Positions 39,162 through 48,149 of a stretch of 64,000 bases of DNA are shown here, piece after piece. The stretch spans positions 1,184,001-1,248,000 of the forward strand of contig OZ241867.1 of assembly GCA_965203175.1 (NCBI GenBank), in the 5' to 3' direction. A program made the position numbers and the translations under genes. The notes under the pieces were generated by a model. The model ran no database searches and was not told where the DNA came from. It was given only the letters and a program-made list of their open reading frames with translations. Source of the DNA: Candidatus Latescibacterota bacterium (lineage in GTDB: Bacteria > Latescibacterota > UBA2968 > UBA8231). The number at the start of each line of letters is the position of its first letter. Positions within the stretch are counted from its first letter, which is position 1.

Positions 39162-40520
39162 CTAGGAACTCGCTTCCTCAGAGCTGACCTTCCGCTGGCC
39201 AGAGCGGCGCTGCTCGGCCTCTTTGATGTGAGGGCGAGTCTCTCCGGCTTCCTCCATGCGTCTCAAGAGTCGGTCTCGCATTACTTGGGCCACTTCTCGA
39301 TGCGACTCGTGGCCGACTAGGTTGTTCAGTTCGTAGGGGTCTGCCTGTATATCGTAGAGATACTGCTCTTCGTAGAGATCGGCTCCTGCTACATCTCTTC
39401 CTTGCCCATCTGGAACGTCCACCCCGTACTTCCACCGATGTGTGCGAACGGCCCGTCCCACTTGGGCTTCGCTAATCTGCACGAAAACCTCTTCGGGCCA
39501 ATCGGCTACTCCACCGCGCAAAAGCGGCATGAGCGAGCGGCCCTGCATCTGCTCGGGGATTTCCAAGCCGGCCGCATCCAAAAGCGTTGGCGGCAGGTCG
39601 ATCAAGCTAACCAACTCTTGCAATTGGCCGCCGCGAAAACCGGGGCCAGTCAAGACCGTCGGCACCCGGATCGAGCTCTCGTGACAAGAGCGTTTGTACT
39701 CGTTGTTGCGCGTCTTGAAGTGACAGCCGTGATCCGACGTAAAGAGCACGATGGTGTCGTCGGCTAGCTCCAAGCTCTTGAGCGCGTCGTGCAGGCGGCC
39801 ATAGGCTTCATCGAGCCGCTTGACCATCCCGTAATAGCCGCCTAAGTGCTGGTGAGTCGAGCCGCCTAAGGCCGCTAGATCGGGCGGGATCCAGCCTCCG
39901 GTATAGACCTCCCGGTAGCCATCGGGGGGTGGATAGTCGTCCAAGTGGTTCTGGTGATGGGGTTCAATGTAGGAGACGAAGAGAAAAAAGGGGTGATCTT
40001 GGTGCGCGTCCACGTAGCGGATTGCGGCATCCGTGACTGCATCCACGCGATAACCGGGTAGGCGGACGGGTTGTTCGTCATTGTCGTAGAGGACCGTGCT
40101 GTAGGCGTCGGAAGTAAACTCGAGAACATTCGACGCCAACCAGTACTGGTAGCCAAAGCGGTCCGCTGCCGGTACCGGACCGGTGGTCCCTCGCTCGTGT
40201 AGGTGCCACTTGCCTATATATCCAGTGTCGTAGCCAGCCGCGGCAAAGTAGTGGGCGAGGGTCTGGCTGTCTGCTGGTAGGGGAATGCCGTTGCGGTAAC
40301 AGCCTGTAGTCGTGGCATAGAAACCCGTTTGCAAGCAAGAGCGCGCCGGGCCGCAGACGGGTTGGCACGTAAAAGAGTGAGCCGCGTGGGTGTACTCGCG
40401 GGCCAAGCGATCGAGATTCGGCGTAAGGCCCAGCGGGTTGCCGTGTAGCCCTGTTGTGTCCCAGCGCTGTTGGTCTGTAAAAAAGACTATGACGTTTGGT
40501 TTTTTACTGTCTCCGGTCAT
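39162..40520 (-). CDS. Sulfatase
   Basis: PNVIVFFTDQQRWD, CGPAR, GKWH, TSDHG motifs. Confidence 0.92.
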   Translation of the reverse strand: MTGDSKKPNVIVFFTDQQRWDTTGLHGNPLGLTPNLDRLAREYTHAAHSFTCQPVCGPARSCLQTGFYATTTGCYRNGIPLPADSQTLAHYFAAAGYDTGYIGKWHLHERGTTGPVPAADRFGYQYWLASNVLEFTSDAYSTVLYDNDEQPVRLPGYRVDAVTDAAIRYVDAHQDHPFFLFVSYIEPHHQNHLDDYPPPDGYREVYTGGWIPPDLAALGGSTHQHLGGYYGMVKRLDEAYGRLHDALKSLELADDTIVLFTSDHGCHFKTRNNEYKRSCHESSIRVPTVLTGPGFRGGQLQELVSLIDLPPTLLDAAGLEIPEQMQGRSLMPLLRGGVADWPEEVFVQISEAQVGRAVRTHRWKYGVDVPDGQGRDVAGADLYEEQYLYDIQADPYELNNLVGHESHREVAQVMRDRLLRRMEEAGETRPHIKEAEQRRSGQRKVSSEEASS

Positions 40521-40544: not shown

Positions 40545-41867
40545 CTATGGCTCAAGTGTCCGATTCGCTGCGCGCTGTAACTCCTCTACCACCTGTTCGA
40601 CGTCCCCGCCTTCAATCGCCTCTATCATCGCCTCTCGAATCAATCGCCGCACCCGTTCATACCCTGCCATCGTCGGCTCTGATTTTCCGTAGTCCAACAT
40701 GCCAAACGCCGCTCCATAGTGCGGGTTTTCCTCAAAGTAGCTTTCTAGCTCGCGCGCCGTACTTTTGCGCACCGGAAAGTAGTTGCTCGCCCGCACCCAT
40801 CGCGCTTGTTGTTCGGGGGCAGTAAACCACTTGAGAAAAAGCCACGCCGCCAGTTGTTTTTCAGGCGTACCGGAGCAGAGCGACACGCTGGCCCCGTACA
40901 CGTCAACAACCGGCCGCGATCCCGTCTGCGGCGGATGGGTCACTCCCCACTCGAAGGCCAGCCCAGAGTCCTCAATGCCGCTCTTGTAAAAGGGCAGGCC
41001 AGAGGAAGAATCCTGCGAGAAGAGGATCTGACCAGTAACGAACTCGTTTACCTCGACATCCCGTTCGCCGGCGATGTCCATCGCGCCGTCTCGCGCTAGT
41101 TCCTGCAACAATTCCAGTACCGCTTTAACTTCTGGCGAGTCCAGCGCATAGGCACTACCGGTCGAATCCACTAGAGCTCCGCCGCGACTGAAGACCATCG
41201 CCGCGAATCGGCTGGCGTCAACATCGAGCAAAAAACCCAAACTGCGCGCTGGGTTTTCGTTTTTGCTAAAGGGTTGGTCTTTGGCCAAGCGGCACATCGC
41301 AGCAAAGTCGTCCCACATCGCCGGTGGCTCGTCGTAGCCCAGCTCGCGCAACCAATCGACATTGTAGTAGAGCAGCTCCATTGAGCGATTCGGCGGGAAG
41401 CCAATCTGCACTCCGCCGAGATTGTCCTGCTCCAAAAATGCTTGGACGTAGTCGCTGCGCGCTGCGGGCGACAAGCCCCATTGGGGCGAATCCATATAGG
41501 GCGTTATATCCACTATGCCGTCGGCTTGGTAGTAGGCGAGGGCTTGGTTTTGGTAGGCTACGACCAAGCTCGCGGCCAGCGAACCGCTCTGGATACCCAC
41601 ATTCACCTTGTTGTAGATGTCCCCATAGCGCCCCATGTACTCGCCGCGCACCTCAATTCCATGGCCGTTGGTCTGGTTAAAGTCGGCAATCAGCTCTTGC
41701 AGGGCATCTTCGCGCTGGCCGGTGTGTTGATACCAAAAGACGATTTTCTGTCCTTGGGGATCAAGGGATTCGAGACTGGTCTGCTGCTCGTAAACGGCCT
41801 CTTGCTGGCCGCCACAAGCCCACAGCAACGTACACCAAACCAATGTAATCGCACATTTTGGTTTCAT
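40545..41867 (-). CDS. Carbohydrate ABC transporter solute-binding lipoprotein (UgpB-like)
   Basis: Start MKPKC at 41867, lipobox LWAC, LLYYNVDWL..LG, QLAAWLFLKW motifs. Confidence 0.88.
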   Translation of the reverse strand: MKPKCAITLVWCTLLWACGGQQEAVYEQQTSLESLDPQGQKIVFWYQHTGQREDALQELIADFNQTNGHGIEVRGEYMGRYGDIYNKVNVGIQSGSLAASLVVAYQNQALAYYQADGIVDITPYMDSPQWGLSPAARSDYVQAFLEQDNLGGVQIGFPPNRSMELLYYNVDWLRELGYDEPPAMWDDFAAMCRLAKDQPFSKNENPARSLGFLLDVDASRFAAMVFSRGGALVDSTGSAYALDSPEVKAVLELLQELARDGAMDIAGERDVEVNEFVTGQILFSQDSSSGLPFYKSGIEDSGLAFEWGVTHPPQTGSRPVVDVYGASVSLCSGTPEKQLAAWLFLKWFTAPEQQARWVRASNYFPVRKSTARELESYFEENPHYGAAFGMLDYGKSEPTMAGYERVRRLIREAMIEAIEGGDVEQVVEELQRAANRTLEP

Positions 41868-43163
41868 CGAAAACCTCTTTAGGATACGGCCGTCTTTAGG
41901 CGGCCGAGGAATAAAGAGCGACCTGAGCGATGGGGCCTTGGGGCCCTGCGCGAAGGCCATAAAGGGCTTGACCCGGTTTCACGGAATGGATGCCTTTAGT
42001 ATGGTGAAGCGCATCATTCAAATCCAACTCCGGCCTACGCCCGAGCAAGCGGCGGCGCTTGAAAAGACGATGTGCCGCTTCCATCTGGCGTGTAATTGGG
42101 TGGCTCAGCGGGCCTTTGAGCGCAAGCTGGCCAACCGTTATGCCTTGCACAAGCTGTACTATTATGACGTGCGCCAGCGGTTTGACCTGCCCGCGCAAAT
42201 GGCCTGTCTGACCTTTGCCCAAGTGGCCGCGGCCTATCAGCGCGACAAGCGCAAAAAGGTGTCGTTTCGCCCGCTGGCGTCGATGCCCTACGACGCGCGT
42301 CTTTTGCATTACCGAGGATTGGACCGGGTGTCACTTTCGACGCTGGCCGGTCGCATCGTCGTGCCAATGGTTATGGGTGCCTACCAAGCCGAGCAGTTTG
42401 GCCACGTCAAGGGATATGCCGAGTTGGTGCGACGGCGCGATGGCAAGTGGTTTTTGATGGCCACCATCGAGTTCGATGACGTGCCCCCGGTTGAGCCCAA
42501 CGACTTCTTCGGCGTGGACCTCGGCGTGGCGAATTTGGCCACCGACTCGGATGGGGCATGCCATTCGGGAAAAGACGTAGAGCGCATCCGCGTAAAGTGT
42601 CAGACGCTCAAGCAGCAGCTTCAGTCGGCGGCTGATAAGGCCAAAAACCACCGTGCGCGCAAACGCATGCGTAAGAAACTGCACCGACGAGCGTGCAAAG
42701 AAGCCAACTTTCGCCGAAATACGAATCACGTCCTCTCCAAGCGTATCGTTGAGAAGGCTAAAGGCACTATCCGAGGTATTGCCCTCGAAGACCTCAAGGG
42801 CATCCGCGATAGACTCCTGTTTCGCAAGCCTCAACGATCCCGCATGGCTGGATGGGGCTTCAACCAACTCAGACAGTTTATCGCCTACAAGGCTCAACAG
42901 GCCGGGGTGAAACTGCTGTTGGTTGATCCCAAGCATACCAGTCAGATGTGCGCTCAGTGTGGCCATGTCCAGCGGGCGAATCGCTCCTGTCAAGCACAGT
43001 TTTGTTGTAAGCAGTGTAGGCATAACGCCCACGCCGATTACAACGCCGCCCGGAACATCCGGGCAAGGGCTCTCGTCAACGAGCCTATAGTTTCAGCCTA
43101 TGCCGCTGCGGCGGCCGGGTAAGGCTAGGGACAAGCCGCCTCCTTGAGGGGGCGGTAGTTGAC
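41868..43163 (+). mobile_element. IS200/IS605-family (IS1341-type, tnpB-only) element
   Basis: Left-end hairpin CGGCCGTC-TTTA-GGCGGCCG (41887-41906) preceded by GATA. Right-end hairpin CCGCCTCC-TTGA-GGGGGCGG (43136-43155) preceded by CAAG and followed by TGAC (43160-43163). No tnpA and no target duplication. Confidence 0.85.
42001..43122 (+). CDS. tnpB: RNA-guided endonuclease TnpB
   Basis: RuvC-I GVDLG, RuvC-II ALEDL, Zn finger CAQC/CKQC, RuvC-III HADYNAARNI; all catalytic residues intact. Start 42001 or 41986. Confidence 0.93.
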   Translation: MVKRIIQIQLRPTPEQAAALEKTMCRFHLACNWVAQRAFERKLANRYALHKLYYYDVRQRFDLPAQMACLTFAQVAAAYQRDKRKKVSFRPLASMPYDARLLHYRGLDRVSLSTLAGRIVVPMVMGAYQAEQFGHVKGYAELVRRRDGKWFLMATIEFDDVPPVEPNDFFGVDLGVANLATDSDGACHSGKDVERIRVKCQTLKQQLQSAADKAKNHRARKRMRKKLHRRACKEANFRRNTNHVLSKRIVEKAKGTIRGIALEDLKGIRDRLLFRKPQRSRMAGWGFNQLRQFIAYKAQQAGVKLLLVDPKHTSQMCAQCGHVQRANRSCQAQFCCKQCRHNAHADYNAARNIRARALVNEPIVSAYAAAAAG

Positions 43164-43183
43164 CGCGTTATCCTTTGAGCCCA
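43000..43183 (+). ncRNA. Predicted TnpB omegaRNA/reRNA (scaffold to 43163, guide about 43164-43183); 5' boundary approximate
   Basis: Established for TnpB: the guide RNA overlaps the tnpB 3' end and right end, and the guide is the flanking sequence (here CGCGTTATCCTTTGAGCCCA). Confidence 0.55.
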
Positions 43184-44004
43184 GATATGGAAATGCCTTC
43201 GGTGAACTCCCGTTGGATGAGAAAATACGCCAAAAGTACGGGAGCGGTCGCAATGACGGCCCCGGCCATTTGCAGGTGAACCTCGGTCCCGGCCTCACTG
43301 GCAAACTGCTGCAATCCCACTGCGATCGGACGCCAATCCGGCGTATTGGTCACTAGTAAAGGCCAAGCCAATGCGTTCCAGGAACCAATAAACGTAAACA
43401 TGCCGACCGTCAAGAGCGGTGCCCGGCACAGGGGGACCGCGATCTGAAACAAAAAGCGCACATGGCCGGCCCCCTCAATCCGGGCCGCATCCCACAGCTC
43501 GTTGGGCAGGCCGCGCATAAACTGGCGCAAGAGAAAGATGCTAAAAGCACTAGCCATAAAGGGAATGGTCAAGGCCGGCCAGCTATTGAGCCAAGCAAAC
43601 GGCGTATTGCGGTGCAGCCACGTCACGACGAGAAAATTCGGCACGATGGTCACGGCCTCGGGAATCATCAGCGTAGCCAAGACGCCGGTAAATACCACAT
43701 CGCGTCCGCGAAACTGCATGCGCGCGAGCGGATAGGCCGCCATCACCGAAAACAACAGGGTCCCGCCGACTTGTAGGACGGCGATGATCAGCGAATTCTC
43801 AAAGTAGAGACCAAAATCCGCCTCTTGCCACGCTTCGATGTAATTGTCCCATTGTACGCGCTCGGGCAGCAAGACCCGCCGCAGCGATTCGCCGCGGCTC
43901 ATAAAAGAAGCCAACAGCATCCACGCGAACGGAAAGCCCGCAGCCAGCCCCCCCAAGCTCAAGCCGCAGTAAATCAGCCTAGCTTTGCCGCCCCTAGTCG
44001 CCAT
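43168..44004 (-). CDS. Carbohydrate ABC transporter permease (MalG-like)
   Basis: ELWDAARIEGA EAA motif, FIGSWN..WPL. Confidence 0.9.
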   Translation of the reverse strand: MATRGGKARLIYCGLSLGGLAAGFPFAWMLLASFMSRGESLRRVLLPERVQWDNYIEAWQEADFGLYFENSLIIAVLQVGGTLLFSVMAAYPLARMQFRGRDVVFTGVLATLMIPEAVTIVPNFLVVTWLHRNTPFAWLNSWPALTIPFMASAFSIFLLRQFMRGLPNELWDAARIEGAGHVRFLFQIAVPLCRAPLLTVGMFTFIGSWNALAWPLLVTNTPDWRPIAVGLQQFASEAGTEVHLQMAGAVIATAPVLLAYFLIQREFTEGISISGLKG

Positions 44005-45644: not shown

Positions 45645-48149
45645 TCAACCCGAGGTCTGCTCATCGGCCGCGCCGTTTTCCCGACTGCCCTCGTCTTCGT
45701 CCTCGCTGATGGGCAGGGGGGCCATGTCGATAACGCGGTCGCCCTCGTCCAGATTGATCAACCTGACTCCTTGGGTATTGCGCCCAATGGTGGATACCCC
45801 CTGTACGGGTATGCGGATCATAATACCGTTCTGGGTTATCACCATGACCTCCTCTTCAGATTCGATCTCCCTACAGGCCACTACGGAGCCGTTGCGCGGG
45901 GAGGTCTTGATGTCGATGACGCCTTGGCCGGCGCGGTGCTTGCTGGGGTACTCGGTCTGGCCAGTGCGCTTGCCATAACCGTTTTCGCAGATGGTTAGCA
46001 AGGTGCTGCTCTCGCGCACTACGACCATGTCCACAACCTCGTCCCCTTGGCGCAATTTAATGCCCTTAACGCCCGTGGAAACCCGGCCCATTGACCGGAC
46101 ATCGCTTTCGCCGAAGCGCATGGCTTGGCCGTTGCGCGTCAATAGGGCAATATCCTGCTGTCCGTCGGTGATGGCCGCCCCAATTAGGTCGTCGTCATCC
46201 TGGATCTTCAGGGCGATGATTCCGTCGCGGCGGATGTTCTGGTAGGCCGAAAGCCTAGTTTTCTTGACAATGCCGTTGCGCGTAGCCGTGAACAAGTACC
46301 GATCGTCGGAGAACTCTCGGACTGGTACGATGGCGCATATTTGGTCGTCTTGGTCGAGTGGCAACAGGTTGGCTATCGACCGGCCCTGAGCCGTGCGGTC
46401 GCCTTCGGGTATGCGAAAGACCTTAAGCCAGTAACATTTGCCCTTGGCAGTCAAGAACATGATATAGGAATGGGTCGAAGCCACGAAGAGGTGTTCAACA
46501 AAGTCCTCTTCCTTGGTTTTCATACCCGTCACCCCGCGCCCTCCGCGATTCTGTACTCGGTAGGCCCTAGGAGGCAGGCGCTTGATATAGCCACTGCGCG
46601 AGATGGTGACGACCATGTCCTCTTCGGCAATCAAGTCCTCAATGTCGAATTCCTCGGCTGCATAGACGATCTCGGTGCGGCGCTCGTCGCCGAAGCGCTC
46701 GGTGATCTCATCAATCTCGTCCTTGATGATCTGCATCTGCCGCTCGCGGCTGGCGAGGATCCCCCTCTGGTCCTCTATCGTCGTCATCAACCCCTTGTAT
46801 TCGTCCTCAATTTTATCGCGTTCCAAACCCGTCAAGCGCTGCAACGGCATGCTCAGGATGGCTTGGACCTGCCGCTCGCTTAACTCGATAGTACTGTCTG
46901 CTGTCGGGCGGATGACCGCCAGCCGCTCTTGGGCATCTGCTGGACTCGACGAGCGGCGGATGGTCTCAATCACTAGGTCAATGTGATCTAGGGCGATGCG
47001 CAGGCCTTCTAAGATGTGCGCCCGGGCTTCGGCCCGCTCCAAATCGTATTGCGTGCGGCGCACGATCACGTCATGGCGGTGATCGATGTAGTGCTGCAGC
47101 ATCTGCTTGAGATTGAGCGTCTCAGGACGGCCATTGACAATGGCCAGCATCATTACTCCATAGGTGGTCTGCAACATGCTATGGCTATAGAGCTGGTTGA
47201 GCACGACTTCGGCTTGGGCTTCTCTCTTGCACTCAAATACGATGCGCAGCCCCTTGCGGCCCGACTCGTCGCGAATATTGGCAAGTCCGTCAATGGTCTT
47301 GTCGCGCACCAAATCGGCTATTTTTTCTAATAAGCTGGCCTTGTTTACCAAGAAGGGGATTTCGGTGACGACGATGTTCTCGCGGCCGTTCTTGAGGGTT
47401 TCAATATCCGCCCGAGCTCTGATGTAGATCAGCCCCCTACCCGTTGCGTAGGCCTGCTGTACTCCGCTCATGCCGTAGATGATCCCGCCGGTGGGAAAAT
47501 CTGGAGCTTTGACGTGATCAAGCAGCTCGGCAATGGAAATTTCGGGATGATCGATCAGCGCCTTGAGGCCACTGGCGACTTCCCGCAGGTTGTGCGGCGG
47601 GATCTTGGTGGCCATGCCGACGGCAATGCCCATAGAGCCGTTGCATATCAGGTTGGGGAACCTAGACGGCAACACCAGAGGCTCTTGCTGGGTCTCGTCG
47701 TAGTTGCTGGCGAATTCGACGGTGTTCTTGTCGAGATCCGCTAGCAGTTCCATCGCTGGCCAGCTCAGCCTCGCCTCCGTATAGCGCATGGCCGCCGGAG
47801 GGTAGCCGTCAATTGAACCGAAGTTGCCCTGGCCTTGGACCAGCGGATAGCGCAAGCGAAAGTTCTGTGCCATATGCACTAGCGTCGGATAGACAATATC
47901 TTCGCCATGCGGGTGGTAGTTGCCAGAGGTGTCGCCGGCAATTTTGGCGCATTTGCGGTAACCGCGGTTGGGAAAAAGGCTTAGGTCGTTCATCGCTACC
48001 AAGATGCGGCGCTGGGACGGCTTGAGACCGTCGCGGACATCGGGTAGGGCACGCGACCGTATGAAGCTCATGGAATAGTCGAGGAAGGAGGTTTTGAGCT
48101 CCTCCTCAATCTTGACCCGCAGGACCCGGCTTTCTTGTTGTTCGAGCAT
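45645..48149 (-). CDS. gyrA: DNA gyrase subunit A
   Basis: [21 protein letters not shown] (catalytic Tyr), GyrA-box QNRGGRG, C-terminal pinwheel repeats. Confidence 0.97.

What the first reader, a model, noticed from the sequence alone, without database searches (positions are those of the whole stretch)
41864..43177. TnpB transposon that targets a start codon (motif TCAT = reverse complement of ATGA) and supplies its own outward-facing Shine-Dalgarno
SEEN: both ends have an 8-bp hairpin with a 4-nt loop; the 4 nt 5' of each hairpin are GATA (41883-86, left) and CAAG (43132-35, right). KNOWN: in IS608/ISDra2 this guide tetranucleotide selects the cleavage site by pairing G1:C2, G2:C1 and G4:C4 (AAAG/TTAC, GAAT/TCAA). 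Applying the rule, CAAG predicts TGAC, found at 43160-63. GATA predicts TCxT, and TCAT lies at 41864-67, which puts the guide at +16 to +19 as in IS608. TCAT is the complement of the ATG-A start of the solute-binding gene. The reconstructed empty site on the minus strand is permease ...AAA GGA TAA CGCG|ATG AAA, i.e. a native SD (AAAGGA) 7 nt before the ATG. The insertion separates that SD from the ATG, but the element's left end reads TAAAGAGGTTTTCG|ATG, placing AGAGG 6 nt upstream. INFERENCE: the element may specialise in inserting antisense immediately before ATGA start codons and restoring translation initiation with a built-in RBS. That would be a harm-avoidance strategy conceptually parallel to IStrons. 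I do not know of this being described, but I cannot search the literature.
Basis: partly seen in the sequence, partly recalled or inferred. Interest (0 to 1): 0.9.

Follow-up and report, generated by a model that had tools for sequence, protein, structure and literature searches.

The report
TnpB transposon parked on start codons
A small TnpB-carrying insertion sequence sits backwards exactly against the start codon of a transporter gene, and about half of its relatives sit against other genes' start codons in the same way, with an outward end that looks like a ribosome-binding site, which suggests a way of living inside operons without silencing the gene behind it.

Summary
Window 41868-43163 is a 1,296-bp IS200/IS605-family element carrying tnpB but no tnpA. 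It is inserted 3' of TCAT, which is the complement of the ATG-A start of a solute-binding-protein gene.

The IS608-type guide rule holds and covaries across copies. GAGA or GATA pairs with TCAT, GGGA with CCAT, GAAG or GATG with TCAC. At the right end, CAAG pairs with TGAC and AAAG with TTAC.

Of 38 independent insertions in three subfamilies (36-100% TnpB identity), 20 lie flush with an antisense ORF start. Seventeen of these ORFs have a family hit, including single-copy hisD and ddl. Only 2-4% of YCAT sites in the genome are such starts.

Read in antisense, the left end is a purine block at -10..-7 followed by a U-rich spacer. Only 16 of 38 copies carry a core Shine-Dalgarno 4-mer.

Whether the element supplies a working ribosome-binding site, and whether the pattern reflects targeting or survival, is untested.

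Separately, tnpB is strongly depleted of codons that would be stops on the antisense strand. The open antisense frame ends in the left-end hairpin loop, 26-28 nt before the host ATG.

I found no paper describing either feature.

The parts
41864..41867 (+). Target and left cleavage tetranucleotide TCAT (host DNA). It is the complement of the ATG-A start of the solute-binding-protein gene.
   Evidence: Present in the empty alleles of 10 of 10 relatives read. It obeys the guide rule with GATA.
41868..43163 (+). The whole element: 1,296 bp, IS200/IS605 family, tnpB only.
   Evidence: Flanks abut in relatives. Similarity among the 6 genome copies stops at these ends.
41868..41882 (+). Left-end linker. 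Read on the minus strand it gives AGAGG (complement of 41874-78) plus a 6-nt U-rich spacer before the host ATG.
41883..41886 (+). Left guide tetranucleotide GATA.
   Evidence: Guide and target covary across copies.
41887..41906 (+). Left subterminal hairpin. Its loop carries, on the minus strand, the TAA (41896-98) that ends the antisense ORF.
42001..43122 (+). tnpB, 373 aa, open, with invariant D173/E263/D346 and CxxC...CxxC.
43132..43135 (+). Right guide tetranucleotide CAAG.
43136..43155 (+). Right subterminal hairpin.
43160..43163 (+). Right cleavage tetranucleotide TGAC, the last bases of the element.
43164..43183 (+). Flank that would serve as the guide of the TnpB RNA. This is inferred only.
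   Evidence: Inference from the known TnpB mechanism (recalled, and passages of 10.1101/2023.03.14.532601). Not tested here.
40545..41867 (-). Solute-binding-protein gene, 440 aa, intact. Its ATG abuts the left end.
43168..44004 (-). ABC permease gene. Its stop lies 4 nt from the right end. The native SD of the SBP gene overlaps its 3' end.
41896..42309 (-). Last piece (137 aa) of the antisense open frame over tnpB. It stops in the hairpin loop, 28 nt before the host ATG.
   Evidence: No Pfam family.

Best explanation
This is a non-autonomous IS200/IS605-family element: tnpB with IS608-type ends and no tnpA. A Y1 transposase supplied in trans pasted it as single-stranded DNA 3' of a TCAT that its left-end guide GATA selects. 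Two tnpA+tnpB elements with the same type of left end are in this genome. Here the TCAT is the complement of the ATG-A start of the last gene of an ABC-transporter operon, so the element lies antisense between that gene's native SD and its ATG. Across the family, copies found today sit flush with antisense start codons far more often than YCAT sites do. I read this mainly as retention of harmless insertions. In a genome that is about 90% coding, start codons are the commonest YCAT positions that truncate no gene. An insertion there is tolerable because the outer 12-16 nt of the left end, read in antisense, form a purine block plus a U-rich spacer at SD distance. The host gene can then still be translated from its own ATG on a transcript that reads through the element from the operon promoter. 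Shown: anatomy, boundaries, empty sites, guide-target covariation, enrichment, the RBS-like profile, and intact single-copy housekeeping genes behind such insertions. Inferred: mobilisation in trans, read-through transcription, and function of the left end as a ribosome-binding site.
For: Boundaries and empty sites were read for three insertions. These are the SBP site, hisD in G012 and the mcsA-like gene in this genome. In each the CAT is host DNA and nothing is duplicated.

The guide rule holds. The left cleavage site ends 19 nt 5' of the hairpin, as stated for IS608 in PMC3201880 (passages). GAGA, GATA or GAAA pairs with TCAT, GGGA with CCAT, GGGA or GGTA with CCCT, and GAAG or GATG with TCAC. 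At the right end CAAG pairs with TGAC and AAAG with TTAC.

Two tnpA genes (NCBIfam transpos_IS200) lie in elements with the same left-end type and a CCAT target.

On enrichment, 20 of 38 independent insertions have an antisense ORF starting at the junction ATG. Seventeen have a Pfam or NCBIfam hit. The model start aligns at the N-terminus for ddl (residue 1 to model 1), LL-DAP aminotransferase (3 to 2), amidohydrolase (3 to 1), McsA (1 to 1) and STAS (7 to 4). In 10 cases the junction ATG is the first start codon of the reconstructed frame. The genome background is 1,814 of 87,592 YCAT sites (2.1%), with a generous bound of 3.9%. For 19 of 39, P is about 5e-17.

G110 has one strong ddl and G012 one hisD. 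Both are the flush ones and both are intact.

The antisense profile of the left end shows purines at -9, -8 and -7 in 34 of 38 copies each and at -10 in 26 of 38. Positions -6..-1 are 83% A/T against 41% in the genome. GAG, GGA or AGG occurs at -16..-5 in 30 of 38 copies against 31% background. The 16S rRNA ends in CCUCC, and 47% of first-start ATG ORFs have a core SD 4-mer against 12% background.

The pattern extends further. The rule finds 18 TCAT-target relatives among 80 metagenome loci. Seven have stop-delimited antisense ORFs of at least 114 aa from the junction ATG. Eight are open to the contig end. One ends after 13 codons and one after 70.
Against: There is no expression evidence for the occupied allele. 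RNA-library contigs (X21, X22) covered only empty alleles of relatives and not the element.

No sigma-70-like promoter was found on either strand in 41700-43400, so transcription of the SBP gene rests on unproven read-through of 1.3 kb of antisense DNA.

A core SD 4-mer is present in only 16 of 38 left ends and is not commoner in flush copies (9 of 20) than in non-flush copies (7 of 18; Fisher P = 0.75). Some flush copies have none (L005). The purine block could be conserved for transposition: in many copies it is the complement of a pyrimidine run that can pair with the guide.

The three flush insertions whose sites I checked across the genus are species-specific. I saw no flush site shared between the genomes sampled. 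Long-term tolerance is therefore not shown.

Eighteen of 38 insertions are not flush. One (c5) lies inside a DNA methylase gene, and up to 6 have a long frame across the site.

Copies share ancestry, gene calls are my own crude ORF set, and 20 junctions were placed by eye as numeric offsets.
Confidence: 0.6

Rival explanations
1. Pure survivorship with no adaptation. The guide happens to specify YCAT. Start codons are simply the most frequent YCAT positions that cut no reading frame. The left-end purine block and A-run serve transposition only. Genes behind the element are weakly expressed, rescued by coupling, or dispensable.
For: Among non-disruptive YCAT sites in this genome, starts make up 25-38%, so a high share is expected from selection alone. 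Twelve of 18 non-flush copies are also in places with no long frame across the site. SD 4-mers are no commoner in flush than in non-flush copies. The three flush insertions whose sites were checked across the genus are species-specific, so they may be young.
Against: Observed flush copies are 19 of 31-33 non-disruptive insertions, still above 25-38% (P = 2e-5 to 0.02). Single-copy ddl and hisD sit behind such insertions with intact frames. The RBS-like profile is kept across subfamilies with only 36% TnpB identity.
Confidence: 0.25
2. Active targeting. The transposase complex prefers targets that resemble the element's own left junction (YCAT, an A/T-rich spacer, then a pyrimidine run). That pattern is the complement of an SD-spacer-ATG module, so start codons are hit preferentially before any selection.
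For: There is an excess over the survivorship expectation. The left-end linker and the complement of a ribosome-binding site look alike. In IS608 non-canonical contacts beyond the tetranucleotide tune target choice (PMC3201880, passage).
Against: A core SD 4-mer on the native side is present in only 6 of 20 flush sites and 5 of 18 non-flush sites. No structural or biochemical evidence exists. Known IS608 target recognition uses only the tetranucleotide.
Confidence: 0.15
3. At this particular locus the insertion simply knocked out or crippled the solute-binding-protein gene. That gene is dispensable, and the flush position here is chance.
For: The insertion is found only in this genome. There is no RNA evidence. 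The native SD is displaced by 1.3 kb. The antisense frame is broken by 2 stops in this copy.
Against: The 440-aa ORF is intact. The family-wide pattern makes chance unlikely.
Confidence: 0.2

Closest known systems
IS608 / ISDra2 (IS200/IS605 family, 'peel and paste' single-strand transposition)
   Same: It has subterminal imperfect hairpins and guide tetranucleotides 5' of each hairpin that pair with the cleavage sites. The left site lies 19 nt 5' of the hairpin and outside the element. The right site lies inside the element a few nt 3' of the hairpin. There is no target duplication. The right ends of subfamily C use the IS608 left-end pair AAAG/TTAC.
   Different: There is no tnpA in cis. The target is YCAT. 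Copies are concentrated at antisense start codons, and the left end reads as a ribosome-binding site. Neither is mentioned in the passages I read.
ISGst5 of Geobacillus stearothermophilus (IscB element with TTCAT as target-adjacent motif)
   Same: The pentanucleotide 5' of the left end is the same, TTCAT (passages of 10.1101/2023.03.14.532601).
   Different: That element carries IscB, not TnpB. The passages report an orientation bias relative to the upstream gene but nothing about start codons or an outward ribosome-binding site.
IStrons (IS605/IS607 elements fused to a group I intron)
   Same: The logic is the same: a TnpB-bearing element that limits the harm of inserting into expressed DNA. 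This comparison is recalled, not read here.
   Different: No intron is present. Rfam gave no match at gathering level and only one chance-level hit. Harm would be avoided at translation initiation, not by RNA splicing.
Insertion sequences with outward promoters (for example ISEcp1 and ISAba1 upstream of resistance genes; recalled)
   Same: The end of the element supplies expression signals to the adjacent host gene.
   Different: Those supply promoters and insert at variable distances. Here the junction is at the first base of the start codon, the candidate signal is a ribosome-binding site, and no promoter-like site was found.

Membership tests
IS200/IS605 family insertion sequence | Subterminal imperfect hairpins at both ends, no terminal inverted repeats | tested here: met
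   Hairpins at 41887-41906 and 43136-43155. They are conserved in the copies.
IS200/IS605 family insertion sequence | Guide tetranucleotide 5' of each hairpin pairs with the cleavage tetranucleotide. The left site lies outside the element and the right site inside it. | tested here: met
   GATA pairs with TCAT and CAAG with TGAC. Covariation across subfamilies. Two exceptions at guide position 4 (c4, L030). The geometry matches PMC3201880.
IS200/IS605 family insertion sequence | Insertion 3' of a specific tetra- or pentanucleotide without target-site duplication | tested here: met
   Empty against occupied alleles at three sites.
IS200/IS605 family insertion sequence | Y1 (HUH) transposase TnpA | tested here: not met
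   There is no tnpA inside 41868-43163. Two tnpA genes lie elsewhere in the genome, in elements with the same left-end type. The element is therefore a non-autonomous, tnpB-only member. Mobilisation in trans is inferred.
IS200/IS605 family insertion sequence | Preference for the lagging-strand template | tested here: inconclusive
   In 6 of 8 elements in this genome tnpB is co-directional with the fork as placed by GC skew (P = 0.14).
TnpB RNA-guided nuclease | RuvC-like D-E-D residues and a zinc-finger CxxC...CxxC | tested here: met
   Invariant D173, E263, D346 and C317/C320/C336/C339 in 13 sequences. Aligns to Cas12f and TnpB structures. NCBIfam guided_TnpB is above its cut-off. Assigning these residues to catalysis is recalled, not tested.
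TnpB RNA-guided nuclease | Guide RNA from the 3' end of tnpB and the right end; target-adjacent motif equal to the transposon target | not testable with these tools
   No Rfam family matched. No RNA reads lie on the element.
IStron | Group I intron at the 5' end of the element | tested here: not met
   No intron family in 41000-44000 at E <= 1.
TldR (nuclease-dead TnpB-derived repressor) | Loss of RuvC catalytic residues, loss of transposon ends | tested here: not met
   The D-E-D residues are kept and both ends are intact.

The most novel reading that the evidence does not exclude
A widespread clade of tnpB-only IS605 elements is adapted to live inside operons. The guide picks the complement of a start codon (ATG for YCAT, GTG for TCAC). 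The element lands antisense exactly at the first base of a gene. Its left end acts as a portable ribosome-binding site. In addition, tnpB is kept free of codons that would be stops on the antisense strand, so that ribosomes can travel through the element and terminate in the left-end hairpin loop, 26-28 nt before the host ATG. Translation would then be coupled to the host gene and polarity avoided.
Probability: 0.35. Interest if true: 0.9.

Novelty: new variant of a known kind. Interest (0 to 1): 0.8.

Why it matters
IS200/IS605 elements and their TnpB nucleases are heavily studied as ancestors of Cas12 and as genome editors. How they coexist with gene-dense hosts is mostly discussed through homing and IStron splicing.

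A lineage whose copies sit on start codons, including those of single-copy housekeeping genes, would be a new harm-limiting strategy acting at translation initiation. That holds only if its outward end really works as a ribosome-binding site.

It would also matter for annotation, because genes behind such elements are not pseudogenes. It would offer a natural compact 'RBS-at-the-junction' insertion cassette.

The depletion of antisense stops in tnpB is seen in several TnpB clades and even at low GC3. It points to an unrecognised constraint on a very common gene family and can be tested directly.

Tried and rejected
Rfam scan of 41000-44000: the only hit was a chance-level HEARO match on the wrong strand (E = 0.55, 19 bits against a gathering score of 83).

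Promoter scan: 0 sites, against 0.9 expected. Terminator-like sites: 4, against 1.7 +/- 1.4 in shuffles, all weak stems.

RNA evidence: the three RNA runs held 5-6% of the sampled words. The two that I laid (X21, X22) covered only relatives' flanks and the empty joint, not the element. Nothing can be said about expression of the occupied allele.

The idea that the CAT belongs to the element was rejected by three empty sites.

The idea that SD 4-mers mark flush copies was rejected (9 of 20 against 7 of 18).

Lagging-strand bias: 6 of 8, not significant.

Pfam on two antisense ORFs gave no family.

Automatic junction finding failed for about 20 of 56 loci with imperfect hairpins. Those were placed by numeric offsets after listing every CAT, which may lean towards CAT.

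Rows dropped before counting:
- L047, L006, L029, L050, L027 and L020: no recognisable or intact left end.
- L044 and L045: Actinomadura, distant, not analysed.
- L051, L015 and L013: unresolved or another target.
- L012, L014, L021, L065 and L016: TCAC-target copies kept apart. Four of the 5 have only a short ORF (2-17 codons) from the junction GTG. L016 has a 222-codon frame that was not tested.
- L025 and L011: orthologous duplicates of L007 and L010.

In the metagenome set, 52 of 80 loci were not classified: the rule gave no TCAT or TCAC target, or there was too little upstream sequence.

Literature: 7 searches found no description of start-codon-flush IS605 insertions, of an outward ribosome-binding site, or of an antisense frame in tnpB. 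The library lacks most subscription journals, and supplements were closed, so TAM tables or insertion-site lists there could bear on this. I saw passages only of 10.1101/2023.03.14.532601, PMC3201880, PMC5027513 and 10.64898/2026.09.24.754181.

Full report
WHAT IS THERE. Window 41868-43163 (+) is a 1,296-bp element. It contains one gene, tnpB (42001-43122, 373 aa). Pfam finds OrfB_IS605 and Cas12f1-like_TNB. NCBIfam guided_TnpB scores 188 bits against a cut-off of 100. The protein aligns to solved Cas12f and TnpB structures. D173, E263, D346 and two CxxC pairs are invariant in 13 relatives. On the minus strand the element is flanked by an ABC permease gene (43168-44004) and a solute-binding-protein gene (40545-41867). 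The window lies in a 6.58-Mb single-contig genome. Close relatives are labelled Candidatus Latescibacterota MAGs, and some are labelled Gemmatimonadota.

CHECK OF THE OBSERVATION. Both hairpins fold as single-stranded DNA.

The decisive test was the empty allele. A DNA search of the 31 genomes of the genus found both flanks in relatives, and in many of them the two flank matches abut or overlap by 2 nt. In all 10 of 10 loci I read, the sequence runs from the permease stop through 4 nt into the ATG of the binding-protein gene. Five of the 10 have exactly the predicted string. There is no target duplication.

The 2-nt CG ambiguity is settled by the family. The 6 copies in this genome (71-74% nucleotide identity to each other's closest) all end in TTGAC and diverge immediately after it.

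An independent contig set bridges both junctions without mismatch.

THE ENDS WORK LIKE IS608. For IS608, the left cleavage site lies 19 nt 5' of the hairpin and outside the element. The guide lies 5' of the hairpin foot. The right site lies inside the element 10 nt 3' of its hairpin. Changing the left guide changes the target predictably (PMC3201880, passages).

Here the TCAT ends 19 nt before the left hairpin, and TGAC starts 4 nt after the right hairpin.
- GAGA, GATA or GAAA with TCAT
- GGGA with CCAT
- GGGA or GGTA with CCCT
- GAAG or GATG with TCAC
- at the right end, CAAG with TGAC and AAAG with TTAC

Two copies (c4, L030) break the rule at position 4.

The element has no tnpA. The genome has two tnpA genes (transpos_IS200), each next to a distant tnpB. 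Both lie in elements whose left end is of the same type with a CCAT target, and whose right end is of the subfamily-C type. Mobilisation in trans is therefore plausible but not shown.

One copy (c4) is 98% identical to a copy at a different site in another species, whose flanks are only 86-90% identical. The family has therefore moved recently.

IS THE START-CODON POSITION MORE THAN CHANCE? I collected relatives from 168 genomes of the phylum and from named contigs.

After removing duplicates and loci without an intact left end (listed under Tried and rejected), 38 independent insertions with a YCAT or CCCT target remained. They fall in three subfamilies:
- A: TnpB identity 67% or more, 23 insertions
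- B: about 55%, 6 insertions
- C: about 36%, 9 insertions

Junctions were placed by the hairpin and guide rule, or, where hairpins are imperfect, by numeric offsets after listing every CAT.

In 20 of 38 the junction CAT is the start of an antisense ORF of at least 82 codons. Seventeen of these have a Pfam or NCBIfam hit:
- solute-binding proteins
- amidohydrolase
- HlyD-type adaptor
- PhyH
- histidinol dehydrogenase
- ankyrin and LRR proteins
- McsA-like protein
- LL-diaminopimelate aminotransferase
- D-Ala-D-Ala ligase
- STAS
- HTH
- PD40
- PcfJ
- an AgmX/PglI-tail protein

The remaining three are less certain. L062 is ambiguous, because a second ATG 5 codons on has its own SD. L030 and L061 have no family hit.

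Several lines show that the ATG is the native start:
- Full-length models align from their first positions: ddl 1 to 1, aminotransferase 3 to 2, amidohydrolase 3 to 1, McsA 1 to 1.
- In 10 cases the junction ATG is the first start codon of the reconstructed frame.
- Two further empty sites were read. At hisD the native arrangement is a stop/start overlap with the upstream gene. At the mcsA-like gene it is an ATGA overlap with an upstream ABC ATPase gene.

G012 has a single hisD and G110 a single strong ddl, and these are the flush ones.

The two autonomous elements are not flush.

EXPECTATION. In this genome 87,592 YCAT sites exist. Of these, 1,814 (2.1%) are the first ATG-purine of an ORF of at least 100 aa in my own ORF set. 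A generous bound is 3.9%.

A fairer null is that only harmless insertions survive. Strictly intergenic YCAT sites number 5,519, so starts would make up 25-38% of harmless sites.

Of the 18 non-flush copies, 12 have no long frame across the site. One (c5) is inside a methylase gene. Flush copies are thus 19 of 31-33 harmless ones, P = 2e-5 to 0.02.

So selection alone explains much of the pattern but probably not all of it. Selection can only do so if flush insertions are tolerated.

These tests assume independent events and rest on crude gene calls.

THE OUTWARD END. Read in antisense, the last 20 nt of the left end show purines at -9, -8 and -7 in 34 of 38 copies each and at -10 in 26 of 38. 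A/T makes up 83% of -6..-1, against 41% in the genome. GAG, GGA or AGG occurs at -16..-5 in 30 of 38 copies against 31% background.

The organism's 16S rRNA ends in CCUCC, and 47% of its first-start ATG ORFs carry a core SD 4-mer against 12% background.

However, only 16 of 38 left ends carry a core 4-mer: 9 of 20 flush and 7 of 18 non-flush. The block may equally serve transposition.

No promoter-like site was found. RNA-library contigs showed only that, in relatives, permease and binding-protein genes lie on one contig across the empty joint.

BEYOND THE PHYLUM. A profile of 13 TnpBs retrieved 80 metagenome loci at 35-52% identity. The rule found a TCAT target in 18 and TCAC in 10.

Of the 18 TCAT-target loci:
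- Seven have stop-delimited antisense ORFs of 114-536 aa from the junction ATG.
- Eight are open to the contig end.
- One ends after 13 codons and one after 70.

Pfam places the start at the N-terminus for a CYTH-CHAD protein and finds a thioredoxin-like family in a second ORF. One (L138) is inside a methylase gene, and four have no family.

In L113, L114 and L119 a stop lies 1-8 codons upstream in the reconstructed site.

Three of the 10 TCAC-target elements abut long ORFs that begin with GTG. This set is less well verified than the phylum set.

AN UNEXPECTED SECOND FEATURE. Many copies have an antisense open frame of 360-431 codons. It runs from 13-76 nt inside the right end, across tnpB and the non-coding part of the left end, to a TAA in the left hairpin loop, 26-28 nt before the junction.

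Host genes of 330-450 codons (n = 1,189) have on average 6.6 stops in the codon-aligned antisense frame, and 0.67% have none. Among 31 copies of subfamilies A and C, 9 have none. In those copies TTA, CTA and TCA codons number 44 against 165 expected from host usage. CTA is at 0.18x, TTA at 0.10x and TCA at 0.69x, while other A-ending codons are at 0.95x.

Subfamily B is not depleted when measured against G000's codon usage, which is not its own host's. Among the 80 metagenome relatives, 32 have no antisense stop, some at GC3 of 0.33-0.49. Four of 6 other tnpB genes in this genome have 2 or fewer.

In the window's own copy the frame is broken by two stops. The last piece is the 137-aa ORF at 41896-42309 (-).

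This could mean translation through the element coupled to the host ATG, or an overprinted gene. I did not test either. Pfam finds nothing.

COMPARISON AND NOVELTY. By its ends and mechanism the element is a tnpB-only member of IS200/IS605. A TTCAT motif is already known for ISGst5. Three things I did not find in seven literature searches: the concentration at antisense start codons, the RBS-like outward end, and the stop-free antisense frame. The library is partial and supplements were closed.

VERDICT. I rate it a new variant of a known kind, of high interest, and directly testable.

Noticed in passing
window 41896-43124 (-) and loci: tnpB is strongly depleted of TTA and CTA codons, and less so of TCA, so its codon-aligned antisense frame is open. 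There are 44 such codons against 165 expected in 31 copies. Nine of 31 copies have no antisense stop, against 0.67% of host genes. Thirty-two of 80 metagenome relatives also have none. The frame ends at a TAA in the left hairpin loop.
   Followed up: partly
G012:C1:4780300-4780494 and G141:C551:2708-2903: A solo fragment of about 190 bp resembling the 3' end of tnpB plus the right end (80-86% identity) lies just downstream of hisD in two species. In G012 hisD therefore has a full element at its start and a right-end remnant at its end.
   Followed up: no
L084 (G000 353773-354891 copy, c5) and L138: Two unrelated copies lie inside N6_N4 DNA methylase genes at in-frame Met codons (Pfam profile positions 162-217 and 130-217).
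   Followed up: no
L082 (G000 5981003-5982121 copy, c3): This copy has lost about 90 nt of its left end, including the hairpin (junction only 41 nt before tnpB). It still sits flush with a 562-aa PcfJ-like ORF and is probably immobile.
   Followed up: no
G000 330594 (L080) and L055 (G006:C239): The same chromosomal site holds an autonomous tnpA+tnpB element in one species and a tnpB-only subfamily-A element in another. In the latter the target reads CCTAT instead of CCCAT.
   Followed up: partly
L083 right junction (G000 near 318220): At the mcsA-like site the insertion removes the upstream ABC ATPase gene's overlapping TGA. That gene now reads 6 codons into the right end and stops at a TAA in the right-end hairpin loop.
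   Followed up: partly
whole genome G000: Cumulative GC skew puts the origin near 6.56 Mb and the terminus near 4.49 Mb, which gives very unequal replichores. Only 51.5% of my ORF calls are co-oriented with replication.
   Followed up: no
window 39162-40520 (-): A 452-aa ORF whose translation looks sulfatase-like by eye (not run against any family library) lies next to the transporter operon. A gyrA-like ORF is at 45645-48149 (-). Neither was examined.
   Followed up: no
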